From UHGV virus genome UHGV-0054069: a DNA stretch of 64,000 nucleotides. One strand, written 5' to 3'. The notes under the pieces were generated by a model. It searched no databases. It saw only the letters and a list, made by a program, of their open reading frames with translations, and was not told the origin of the DNA. Positions 18,243 to 18,294 of this stretch are shown here, piece after piece. Source of the DNA: a virus. Made by a program: the position numbers and the translations under genes. Within the stretch, counting starts at the first letter, position 1, and each line of letters begins with the position of its first letter.

Positions 18243-18294
18243 GAGGGCTTTTTAGCCCCTCCCTTAAAGAGTTCTTACGAGTATTCTTTAAAGG
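18243..18294 (+). ncRNA. hairpin element with conserved loop GTTCTTACGAG (copy 1)
   Basis: small hairpin GAGGGC..GCCCCTC then stem CCTTAAAGA/TCTTTAAAGG around loop GTTCTTACGAGTAT. Confidence 0.35.

What the first reader, a model, noticed from the sequence alone, without database searches (positions are those of the whole stretch)
18243..18294. Two hairpins with different stems but the same loop GTTCTTACGAG inside the tRNA operon
Seen: 18262-18294 (stem CCTTAAAGA/TCTTTAAAGG) and 21479-21507 (stem TAAGG/CCTTA) both enclose loop GTTCTTACGAG(T/A)(A/G)T. Conserved loop with divergent stem suggests the loop is a recognition site (processing, protein binding or kissing interaction) rather than a terminator.
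Basis: seen in the sequence. Interest (0 to 1): 0.5.

Follow-up and report, generated by a model that had tools for sequence, protein, structure and literature searches.

The report
Conserved spacer hairpins in phage tRNA cluster
The two sites are real, related copies of a small conserved RNA hairpin that fills gaps between genes in a Felix-O1-like phage's tRNA cluster, but the shared "loop" is really the paired top of the stem plus a four-base loop, so it is most likely a structural processing element, not a sequence read-out site.

Summary
A shared 11-mer alone is not beyond chance. The interpretation needs correcting. The "loop" folds into five more pairs closing a UACG tetraloop, giving 10-12 bp helices. 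The stems are homologous, not different.

Both copies sit at the same positions in Mooglevirus, Suspvirus and Felixounavirus genomes. Pairing is kept through compensatory changes, including an A-U / G.U / G-C series, and G.U pairs place the structure on the tRNA-sense RNA strand. A third family member lies just 5' of tRNA-Arg(UCU), at 19097-19160 here. In relatives its stem matches site 2 but its apex differs, and the tetraloop also varies at site 1 (UGCG, UGUG). So the stem, not the loop, is the family-wide constant.

Each copy lies within a few bases of the 5' end of the next RNA unit. My best reading is a structural punctuation hairpin for processing of the tRNA precursor. That function is inferred, not shown.

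In passing, the adjacent gene 15933-17348 models as a Ro60-fold protein. Four stem-plus-CAGCAA RNA modules follow it, and the same modules recur beside its homologues in distant phages.

The parts
18264..18291 (+). It has 12 pairs, 18264-18275 with 18280-18291, including one U.U mismatch, and a UACG loop at 18276-18279. Two further C-G pairs are possible across a bulged A (18262-18263 with 18293-18294).
   Evidence: Fold. Covariation. Found at the same position in all Moogle-, Susp- and Felixounavirus loci examined. The covariance model scores 56.5 bits on the + strand and 20.8 on the - strand.
21483..21506 (+). It has 10 pairs, 21483-21492 with 21497-21506, and a UACG loop at 21493-21496. It fills the 31-nt spacer between tRNA-Gln(CUG) and tRNA-His.
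   Evidence: 54.3 bits. Neighbouring spacers are 1-9 nt. In one relative (L022) the stem extends to 15 pairs, from the last base of the CCA of tRNA-Gln to base -1 of tRNA-His.
19097..19160 (+). Third family site S3, long form. AACATTCTAAAGGGTA pairs with TACCCTTTAAAATGTT around a 32-nt apical insert. It ends 3 nt before tRNA-Arg(UCU).
   Evidence: Fold (-26 kcal/mol, z -2.1). At the same place most Felixounaviruses and ESh21 carry a perfect 15-16-bp hairpin, ATCTTTAAGGGCTTTC-UAA-GAGAGTCTTTAAAGAT, whose arms are homologous to S2. The single copy in Erwinia phage M7 sits at the equivalent place and has the UACG apex. Assigning the long form in this window to the family rests on position and on the shared base of the stem.
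18243..18261 (+). Hairpin A. This G+C-rich stem-loop (GAGGGCT-TTTT-AGCCCCTC) lies between tRNA-Asp and S1, inside the coordinates of the finding.
   Evidence: Folds. It is conserved in relatives while its loop varies (TTTTT, TATTT, TTTCT). Yersinia P778 also has two tandem hairpins after tRNA-Asp.
18294..18371 (+). Module M3, the structured RNA unit whose 5' strand starts right after S1. It has an outer helix GAGC/GCTC, an AGA bulge, an inner helix AGACCAA/TTGGTCT, and then ATT-CAGCAA.
   Evidence: The region 18238-18515 is almost invariant among 36 distinct relatives.

Best explanation
The two sites belong to a three-site family of conserved RNA stem-loops. The stems are 10-16 bp and A+U-rich at the base, and at two sites they are capped by a UACG tetraloop. 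The family lies in the polycistronic tRNA/small-RNA precursor of an Ounavirinae (Mooglevirus-like) phage.

The shared 11-mer is the top five pairs plus the tetraloop of one ancestral hairpin. It is kept by common descent and by selection for pairing. It is not a single-stranded recognition loop.

Each copy sits at a junction between RNA units, a few bases 5' of the next unit: tRNA-His, tRNA-Arg(UCU), or the structured module M3.

I infer that the hairpins are structural punctuation for precursor processing. They fold on their own, which keeps spacer sequence from pairing with the neighbouring acceptor stems. They define single-stranded nicks for endonucleases at their edges, RNase P at the 3' edge and RNase E or RNase BN/Z after the upstream CCA. 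They block 3' exonucleases until those cuts are made, and are then discarded.

They appear related to the leader-trailer stems that bracket tRNA-Ser(UGA) in this phage and tRNA-His in Yersinia phage P778.

What is shown: the structure, its conservation, the strand and the positions. What is inferred: the processing role and the enzymes involved.
For: - Predicted helices with a UACG loop.
- On 9 distinct variants, 91.7% of cells are paired and 4 of 12 pairs change on both sides. No shuffle in 500 and no slid register reaches these values.
- On 17 variants from three sites and five genera, pair types vary while pairing is kept at nearly every level, including an A-U / G.U / G-C series.
- The covariance model finds exactly two strong copies per genome, on the + strand only: 52-58 bits against about 20 on the - strand, because G.U pairs become A.C there. 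The S3 copies score 15.7-16.2 bits.
- An IMG/VR pattern scan returned 36 stretches, all but two from contigs of 51-94 kb and most of about 81-94 kb, the size of Ounavirinae genomes.
- S2 is a 31-nt spacer among spacers of 1-9 nt, and it spans exactly from the CCA of tRNA-Gln to position -1 of tRNA-His.
- S3 and the M7 copy end 3-9 nt before a tRNA.
- S1 ends 2 nt before module M3.
- Leader-trailer stems flank tRNA-Ser(UGA) in the window, wV8 and P778 with different sequences, and flank tRNA-His in P778 with arms resembling those of S2.
- There is no terminator signature.
- Coding is excluded: the paired substitutions in the only overlapping ORF (18239-18325) are both non-synonymous.
Against: - There are no transcript-end or cleavage data. 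No paper found describes these elements.
- The stems are shorter than classical RNase III substrates, and no RNase E signal can be scored with these tools.
- Most tRNA junctions in the same cluster do without any hairpin. The element is therefore not generally required for tRNA release.
- The relatives are closely related (80-99% identity), so much of the conservation is shared ancestry. The whole spacer 18238-18515 is equally conserved.
- The exact identity of the 16-nt apex between Erwinia M7 and this phage, at different sites, is more than pairing alone would demand.
Confidence: 0.5

Rival explanations
1. Sequence-specific recognition of the apical stem-loop. A phage or host protein, or another RNA, reads the UUCU-UACG-AGA apex.
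For: GGTTCTTACGAGAGTC is identical between this phage (S2) and Erwinia phage M7, at a different junction and in a different genus. S1 and S2 share the apex although their bases differ. U and G at loop positions 1 and 4 are kept in all three loop variants seen at S1 and S2.
Against: Loop positions 2-3 vary (UGCG, UGUG). S3 in most Felixounaviruses keeps the arms but has a CUAAG apex. The P778 orthologue has another apex. No complementary partner for a kissing interaction exists in the window. The element occurs without the Ro-like protein in M7, and the protein occurs in P778 without a model-detectable copy of the hairpin, so that protein is not the obvious reader.
Confidence: 0.12
2. A DNA-level element. 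The palindromes are recombination or insertion hotspots, or scars, at the borders of exchangeable tRNA cassettes. They would be 'empty' bracket stems left when a tRNA gene moved.
For: The tRNA upstream of S1 differs among genomes (Asp, Tyr or another) while the hairpins stay. The tRNA downstream of S3 differs (Arg-UCU or another). S3 in this window has a 32-nt insert in its apex. In P778 arms resembling those of S2 flank tRNA-His. The M7 copy is at another junction.
Against: G.U pairs are conserved and the structure is much better on one strand. Compensatory change proceeds through a G.U intermediate. Neither point is expected for a DNA cruciform. No target duplication or endonuclease gene is linked to the sites.
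Confidence: 0.15
3. A relic without present function, for example a decayed tRNA T-arm or a leftover leader-trailer stem that is simply tolerated.
For: The S2 stem TAAGG/CCTTA plus TTC is identical to the T-arm of the tRNA-Gln(CUG) just upstream (TAAGGTTCAAATCCTTA). Most junctions need no hairpin.
Against: The element is maintained in three genera, with a further copy in Erwinia M7 (Kolesnikvirus) and a likely orthologue in Yersinia P778. Compensatory substitutions keep it paired. Site 1 lies in a spacer as conserved as the tRNAs. ARAGORN and Rfam report no tRNA there.
Confidence: 0.13
4. An intrinsic terminator or attenuator within the tRNA operon.
For: In P778 the first hairpin after tRNA-Asp is followed by UUCUUUUUU. 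Hairpin A is G+C-rich.
Against: No U tract follows S1, S2, S3 or hairpin A. The terminator scan has no hit at these sites. tRNA genes continue directly downstream. The Felix O1 paper lists no terminator within the cluster.
Confidence: 0.05

Closest known systems
Stable UNCG-tetraloop hairpins in intercistronic regions of phage T4 (Tuerk et al. 1988, from my own knowledge)
   Same: A short stem capped by a U-N-C-G loop (UACG, with UGCG in one relative), in an untranslated phage intergenic region and acting as RNA.
   Different: The closing pair is U-A, not the C-G of the extra-stable C(UNCG)G motif. One relative has UGUG, and the third site has another loop. The context here is pre-tRNA spacers, not mRNA.
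RNase III processing hairpins and leader-trailer processing stems (T7 early mRNA sites, rRNA operon stems, the RNase III site in the T4 tRNA precursor; from my own knowledge)
   Same: Stem-loops placed exactly between functional RNA units of a polycistronic precursor. Related bracket stems flank tRNA-Ser(UGA) here and tRNA-His in P778.
   Different: S1 and S2 have only 10-12 pairs, below the roughly 20 bp of classical substrates. No cleavage data exist.
Spacer processing of E. coli polycistronic tRNA transcripts by RNase E, RNase P and 3' exonucleases (from my own knowledge)
   Same: The elements sit in tRNA-tRNA spacers, with A/U-rich single-stranded nucleotides at the hairpin edges.
   Different: Host spacers are not known to need a conserved hairpin, and most spacers of this phage have none.
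Promoter-early stem-loops (PeSLs) of T4-type phages, proposed as mobile regulatory cassettes (Arbiol et al. 2010, from my own knowledge)
   Same: Repeated intergenic stem-loops at borders where gene content differs between related phages.
   Different: No promoter is attached to S1 or S2. Strand asymmetry and G.U pairs point to RNA rather than DNA function.
Ro60 / Y RNA systems, including YrlA and Thermus phage phiLo Ro60 with Yrl1/2 (PMC4201824, PMC12135203). This applies to the neighbouring modules, not to the hairpins.
   Same: A Ro60-fold protein gene lies with stem-bulge RNAs on the same strand within about 1 kb, and some of the RNAs carry a tRNA-like domain.
   Different: The protein is DUF2828/DUF7788, not Pfam TROVE. 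The RNA motif is CAGCAA, not (GN)CGAA. No Rfam YrlA match occurs in this window.

Membership tests
Extra-stable C(UNCG)G tetraloop hairpin | Loop sequence UNCG | tested here: met
   The loop is UACG at S1 and S2 in this window. Relatives also show UGCG, which conforms, and UGUG, which does not.
Extra-stable C(UNCG)G tetraloop hairpin | A C-G closing pair directly on the loop | tested here: not met
   The closing pair is U-A, and C-G is the second pair.
Rho-independent terminator | A G+C-rich stem followed at once by a U tract | tested here: not met
   The stems are A+U-rich and are followed by AAAGGAG and AAAUGUG. The scan has no hit at these sites.
RNase III substrate | About two helical turns (around 20 bp) of double-stranded RNA | tested here: not met
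   S1 has 12 pairs and S2 has 10. Only the long S3 form and the 15-16-bp S3 form of relatives come close.
RNase III substrate | Cleavage by RNase III in vivo or in vitro | not testable with these tools
   This needs end mapping in rnc+ and rnc- hosts, or an in-vitro assay.
tRNA or tRNA fragment (T-arm) | A 5-bp stem with a 7-nt T-loop, recognised by tRNA models | tested here: not met
   ARAGORN and Rfam report no tRNA at either site. The 'loop' is 14 nt and pairs internally. Only the S2 stem and its TTC resemble the neighbouring T-arm.
Any curated RNA family (Rfam 15) | A score at or above the family's gathering threshold | tested here: not met
   No family matches 18243-18294 or 21479-21507, even at E up to 10.
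Small protein-coding ORF (18239-18325, 28 aa) | A substitution pattern that preserves the protein | tested here: not met
   The A-to-G and T-to-C changes in relatives are both non-synonymous (E to G, F to S) but restore a base pair.
Y RNA / YrlA (for neighbouring modules M1-M4) | Encoded next to a Ro60-type protein gene on the same strand | tested here: met
   The protein model (pLDDT 87.8) matches Ro60 structures over their full length, with E 1e-9 to 4e-7 and TM 0.53-0.64 for ten of the eleven significant matches. The modules lie 0.3-1.2 kb downstream on the same strand.
Y RNA / YrlA (for neighbouring modules M1-M4) | A terminal stem with a bulge and the GNCGAA(N)G / CGAA motif, with a score above the Rfam YrlA threshold | tested here: not met
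   A stem with an AGA bulge is present. However, the motif is CAGCAA and there is no YrlA match in this window. The mycobacteriophage Samty homologue reaches 37.9 bits against a threshold of 69.
Dictyostelium Class I RNA (RF01414) (for modules M1-M3) | A score at or above the gathering threshold of 41.5 bits | tested here: not met
   The scores are 23.5, 15.7 and 13.5 bits here and 23.1 and 19.6 bits in Listeria phage LMTA-34. The design is shared (6-7-bp terminal stem, then ..UUACAGCAA, about 55-65 nt, 3' end ..CUG), but this is a resemblance and not membership.

The most novel reading that the evidence does not exclude
The hairpins are not generic spacers. They are dedicated boundary signals of a phage-encoded small-RNA system. 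On this reading they are 'closed' versions of the leader-trailer stems that bracket exchangeable tRNA cassettes. At site 1 the hairpin sets the 5' boundary of a series of Y-RNA-like stem-plus-CAGCAA RNAs (M3, M4) that partner the adjacent Ro60-fold DUF2828 protein. The hairpin family would then mark where units of a tRNA/Y-RNA operon are cut apart and, over evolutionary time, swapped.
Probability: 0.15. Interest if true: 0.65.

Novelty: new member of a known kind. Interest (0 to 1): 0.38.

Why it matters
The hairpin itself matters modestly. It adds a defined, conserved, testable cis-element to the tRNA clusters of Felix-O1-like phages, which are widely used therapeutic and typing phages. It also shows that some tRNA junctions in these clusters carry structured punctuation while most do not.

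Knowing its role would help explain how large phage tRNA arrays are matured, and how tRNA genes are exchanged between phages.

The surroundings matter more. The same cluster holds a Ro60-fold protein gene and four conserved stem-plus-CAGCAA RNAs. This pairing recurs in phages of Actinobacteria, Firmicutes, Campylobacter and enterobacteria, and it is not in Rfam.

Tried and rejected
- **A third copy on the minus strand at 6660-6693** (GGTTCTTGGGAGTATC, 16.4 bits, E 0.12). In Felix O1, SUSP1, SP116 and UAB_69 the same position reads GGGTCTTTGAAGGAAC. The likeness is specific to this lineage, so I treat it as unrelated.
- **An IMG/VR match in contig L025.** It lies inside an ORF (..KGSYEN..) of a 23-kb contig, so I count it as a chance match.
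- **GTTCTTAGAAG upstream of tRNA-Leu(UAG) in Felixounaviruses.** It forms a different hairpin and is not in this window.
- **Anticodon-stem mimic** (CUUACGA read as a 7-nt loop with a Val anticodon). That register breaks the helix at the third pair (reasoned).
- **Coupling to the Ro-like protein.** Erwinia M7 has the hairpin but neither the gene nor the modules. P778 has the gene and modules but only a diverged hairpin.
- **tRNA-Tyr inside the Asp-Lys spacer.** The tRNA-Tyr/pseudo-GTA annotated in relatives lies upstream of tRNA-Asp.
- **Literature.** The Felix O1, wV8 and Sf14 tRNA papers do not mention these elements, and the Felix O1 paper lists no terminators in the cluster. Two general searches gave nothing relevant.
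- **Anchoring on the 3' end of tRNA-Gln in IMG/VR.** It gave only 3 contigs.
- **MAFFT alignment of all three sites.** It put the length difference in the wrong place, so I tabulated the pairs by script instead.

Full report
**What the window is.** The tRNA cluster at 17514-22600 holds 24 ARAGORN tRNAs, all on the + strand. It is 88-94% identical over 5.3 kb to Mooglevirus, Suspvirus and Felixounavirus phages of the Ounavirinae, the Felix-O1-like group.

**The observation.** Coordinates and letters are correct. GTTCTTACGAG occurs exactly twice in 64 kb, at 18271 and 21488, both on the + strand. A repeated 11-mer is not in itself unusual. The window has 1720 repeated 11-mers, and shuffled cluster spacers give 2.4 on average.

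The described anatomy needs correction. RNAfold extends both stems into the supposed loop, leaving only UACG unpaired. Site 1 (S1) has 12 pairs, 18264-18275 with 18280-18291. Site 2 (S2) has 10 pairs, 21483-21492 with 21497-21506.

The stems are also not 'different'. The two elements align without gaps at 24/36 identity. In Felixounaviruses such as GEC_vB_B1, S1 reads TTAAAGGGTTCTTACGAGTATCCTTTAA against S2's TCTAAGGGTTCTTACGAGAGTCCTTAAA, which is 26/36. They are paralogous copies of one hairpin.

**Conservation and structure.** Both copies sit at the same positions in every Moogle-, Susp- and Felixounavirus locus examined.
- At S1 one pair runs A-U (this window), G.U (wV8) and G-C (GEC_vB_B1, S.Kent, RPN213).
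- At S2, G.U becomes A-U in wV8, Seyj1-1 and PK6, and U.G becomes U-A in another relative.
- In L022 two flank changes lengthen the S2 stem to 15 pairs.
- On nine distinct variants 91.7% of cells pair and 4 of 12 pairs change on both sides. No shuffle in 500 and no slid register reaches this.
- A covariance model finds two strong copies per genome, both on the + strand. It scores 52-58 bits there against about 20 bits on the - strand, because the G.U pairs only work in the tRNA-sense RNA.
- An IMG/VR scan with a 22-nt degenerate pattern returned 36 stretches, mostly from contigs of about 81-94 kb, the size of Ounavirinae genomes.

The only ORF over S1 (18239-18325) is not under coding constraint. 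The two compensatory substitutions are both non-synonymous.

**A third site, and what is really conserved.** Erwinia phage M7 (Kolesnikvirus) has one copy, CTAAAAGGTTCTTACGAGAGTCTTTCAG, 9 nt upstream of tRNA-Leu(CAA). It lies at the end of a spacer homologous to window 18887-19163.

At that same place most Felixounaviruses and ESh21 carry ATCTTTAAGGGCTTTCTAAGAGAGTCTTTAAAGAT. This is a perfect 15-16-bp hairpin (z -4.5). Its arms are those of S2, with U.G changed to C-G and C-G changed to U.G, but its apex is CUAAG.

This window, like other Moogle- and Suspviruses, has a longer form at 19097-19160. It keeps the same base (CTAAAGGGTA / TACCCTTTAA) and carries a 32-nt apical insert.

At S1 the tetraloop is UGUG in ESh21 and UGCG in PK6. 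In Yersinia phage P778 two tandem hairpins follow tRNA-Asp, as they do here. The second keeps the base of S1 (AAGAG with its G.U pair) and has another apex.

Across the family the helix is therefore the constant, and the apex is shared only by a subset.

**Position.**
- S2 is a 31-nt spacer among spacers of 1-9 nt. It runs from just after the CCA of tRNA-Gln(CUG) to 3 nt before tRNA-His.
- S3 ends 3 nt before tRNA-Arg(UCU).
- S1, together with the G+C-rich hairpin A (18243-18261), looks like a 54-nt insertion. It sits between CCAAATTTGA and CAGAAGACC, which are directly joined after the tRNA at 17598-17669. S1 ends 2 nt before module M3.

The whole stretch 18238-18515 is nearly invariant among 36 distinct relatives.

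The flanking tRNA differs between genomes at S1 (Asp, Tyr or another) and at S3 (Arg-UCU or another).

Complementary leader-trailer stems bracket tRNA-Ser(UGA) in this window (19467-19477 with 19566-19576, z -4.5), in wV8 and, with a different sequence, in P778. In P778, arms resembling those of S2 (GTAAAGTTCT / AGAGTCTTAC) bracket tRNA-His.

**Mechanism.** I commit to a structural punctuation element of the precursor RNA. It is an autonomous hairpin that insulates neighbouring acceptor stems, presents short single-stranded edges to RNase P (3' edge) and to RNase E or RNase BN (5' edge), and stalls 3' exonucleases until those cuts are made.

The structure, strand, conservation and junction positions are shown. 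The enzymes and the processing role are inferred. No end-mapping data exist in the papers I could find.

Arguments against this reading are that most junctions lack any hairpin and that the stems are short for RNase III. I put confidence at about 0.5 for this function and about 0.85 for 'conserved structured RNA hairpin family'.

**Rivals.**
- Apex recognition by a protein, 0.12. It is favoured by the 16-nt apex identity with M7.
- DNA-level recombination or insertion hotspot, or cassette scar, 0.15. It is favoured by the variable neighbours and the apical inserts, and disfavoured by the G.U pairs and strand asymmetry.
- Functionless relic, 0.13. The S2 stem equals the T-stem of the adjacent tRNA-Gln.
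- Terminator, 0.05.

**Comparison with known systems.** The nearest analogues are the UNCG-capped intercistronic hairpins of T4, RNase III and leader-trailer processing stems, and RNase E/P processing of host tRNA operons. Membership fails for each tested definition:
- the closing pair is U-A, not C-G;
- no U tract follows the stem;
- the helices are shorter than 20 bp;
- there is no tRNA or Rfam match.

I rate the finding as a new member of a known kind, namely conserved processing or stability stem-loops in phage polycistronic RNA.

**Noticed nearby.** The gene just upstream of the cluster is most likely 15933-17348 (471 aa), since homologues are mostly 471 aa. It is DUF2828 + DUF7788 and PHROG 850 'RNA-binding protein'.

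Its AlphaFold model (pLDDT 87.8, pTM 0.88) matches full-length Ro60 structures, including Xenopus Ro60 and Thermus phage phiLo Ro60. Foldseek gives E 1e-9 to 4e-7, with TM 0.53-0.64 for ten of the eleven matches.

Downstream on the same strand lie four paralogous modules: M1 17677-17749, M2 17838-17910, M3 18294-18371 and M4 18379-18506. Each has an outer 4-bp helix, an AGA bulge, an inner 7-bp helix that covaries between copies (AGACCAA/TTGGTCT against AGGCCGT/ACGGTCT), and then three bases followed by an invariant CAGCAA.

M4 encloses a permuted tRNA-like domain, with a T-arm at 18428-18444, a closed acceptor-like stem at 18447-18464 and a D-like arm at 18469-18483. This is the YrlA layout.

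The same design, a stem of unrelated sequence followed by NNN-CAGCAA, occurs two to three times within 0.5 kb of the homologous gene, on the same strand, in five distant phages. These are Mycobacterium phage Samty, Listeria LMTA-34, Enterococcus EFDG1, Campylobacter CPX and Staphylococcus S-CoN_Ph11. Three copies also lie in the downstream tRNA cluster of Yersinia P778, 0.7-1.5 kb from the gene. Shuffles give 0.1-0.3 per locus.

Aeromonas Ah1 has no copy near the gene. Vibrio R11Z has one 41-nt copy over the gene's own ribosome-binding site and start codon.

Rfam has no family for these modules. The long Samty module reaches 37.9 bits on YrlA, below the threshold of 69. The short modules reach 13-23.5 bits on Dictyostelium Class I RNA, below the threshold of 41.5. 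That family has the same design of a terminal stem followed by ..UUACAGCAA, and it has been reported as unique to dictyostelids.

Phage Ro60/Y-RNA pairs are known (PMC4201824, PMC12135203), but they use a CGAA motif. This looks like a separate branch and deserves its own study.

The hairpins of the finding are not coupled to this system. M7 has a hairpin but lacks the gene and the modules, while P778 has the gene and modules with only a diverged hairpin.

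Noticed in passing
window 15933-17348 (+); the ORF as listed runs 15864-17348: The gene just upstream of the tRNA cluster is DUF2828 + DUF7788 and PHROG 850 'RNA-binding protein'. Its AlphaFold model (pLDDT 87.8, pTM 0.88) matches full-length Ro60 (TROVE + vWA) structures, including Thermus phage phiLo Ro60, although it has no sequence hit in the PDB. Homologues are mostly 471 aa, so the GTG start at 15864 is probably 23 codons too early.
   Followed up: yes
window 17677-17749, 17838-17910, 18294-18371, 18379-18506 (+): Four paralogous RNA modules share one design: an outer 4-bp helix, an AGA bulge, an inner 7-bp helix that covaries between copies, then 3 nt and an invariant CAGCAA. The same design, with unrelated stem sequences, occurs 2-3 times beside the DUF2828 gene in Mycobacterium phage Samty, Listeria LMTA-34, Enterococcus EFDG1, Campylobacter CPX and Staphylococcus S-CoN_Ph11, and three copies lie in the downstream tRNA cluster of Yersinia P778. 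Shuffles give 0.1-0.3 per locus. No Rfam family covers them. They are candidate Y-RNA-like partners of the Ro-like protein.
   Followed up: partly
window 18379-18506 (M4); L054 5024-5149; L011 2735-2825: The long modules enclose a permuted tRNA-like domain, the layout of bacterial YrlA Y RNAs. In M4 the T-arm is 18428-18444, the closed acceptor-like stem 18447-18464 and the D-like arm 18469-18483. The Samty copy scores 37.9 bits on Rfam YrlA (threshold 69). M4 itself gives no YrlA match.
   Followed up: partly
window 17846-17906, 18302-18367, 18387-18502; L055 3183-3238 and 3272-3327: The short modules give sub-threshold matches (13.5-23.5 bits, threshold 41.5) to Rfam RF01414, Dictyostelium Class I RNA. 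That family has the same plan: a 6-bp terminal stem, the motif ..UUACAGCAA next to the 5' strand, about 60 nt in length, and a 3' end ..CUGU. It has been reported as unique to dictyostelids (PMC7919456). From memory, Pfam describes DUF2828 as found in eukaryotes and viruses. Whether the two are homologous was not tested.
   Followed up: partly
L056 3477-3517 (Vibrio phage R11Z): A single 41-nt stem + UUA-CAGCAA copy spans the ribosome-binding site and the AUG of the DUF2828 gene itself. This hints at autoregulation of translation.
   Followed up: no
window 21509-21510: The base before tRNA-His is T, so no G-1 is encoded, although the discriminator is C73. The same holds in relatives and in P778. 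tRNAscan calls this gene a pseudo-tRNA in Felix O1 and wV8.
   Followed up: no
window 19467-19477 with 19566-19576: tRNA-Ser(UGA) is bracketed by an 11-13-bp leader-trailer stem (z -4.5) and appears to lack an encoded CCA. The same bracket occurs in wV8 and, with a different sequence, in P778. P778 tRNA-His and Erwinia M7 tRNA-Met(CAU) are bracketed too.
   Followed up: partly
window 17598-17669, 18067-18147, 19383-19466: Three tRNA or tRNA-like genes were missed by ARAGORN. The first is an Rfam tRNA at 53.7 bits, annotated tRNA-Glu in relatives. The second is a weak tRNA at 22.8 bits, annotated Tyr or pseudo-GTA in relatives. The third is a tRNA-like sequence ending in CCA; at the homologous place wV8 carries a pseudo-tRNA that ARAGORN calls Trp.
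   Followed up: partly
window 18902-19095: A strong sigma-70-like promoter (TTGACA-17-TATAGT, 18902-18930) is followed by a conserved non-coding stretch that is also present in Erwinia M7. It ends in a GCCCAC/GTGGGC hairpin just before S3. Rfam gives only a weak tmRNA_permuted match (33.5 bits, threshold 47).
   Followed up: no
window about 5600-7240: A 1.6-kb stretch has no ORF of 50 aa or more apart from one 52-aa ORF (6756-6914, - strand). The part read, 6300-7000, is packed with (C)TTAACA / TAACAAG repeats. In phage UAB_69 a direct terminal repeat begins within the homologous region, and several relatives' records start or end here.
   Followed up: partly
window 21623-22420 (+): A 265-aa ORF (DUF7217) is listed inside the tRNA cluster, between tRNA-Phe and tRNA-Ser(GCU), and as listed it starts within tRNA-Phe. 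Relatives carry HNH or homing endonuclease genes at various places in the cluster.
   Followed up: no
upstream of S1 and downstream of S3 in related loci (L015, L016, L022, L024; L009, L012, L018 and others): The tRNA gene next to the conserved hairpins differs between otherwise collinear genomes. Upstream of S1 it is Asp, Tyr or another tRNA. Downstream of S3 it is Arg-UCU or a different tRNA. The hairpins therefore lie at borders of exchangeable tRNA cassettes.
   Followed up: partly
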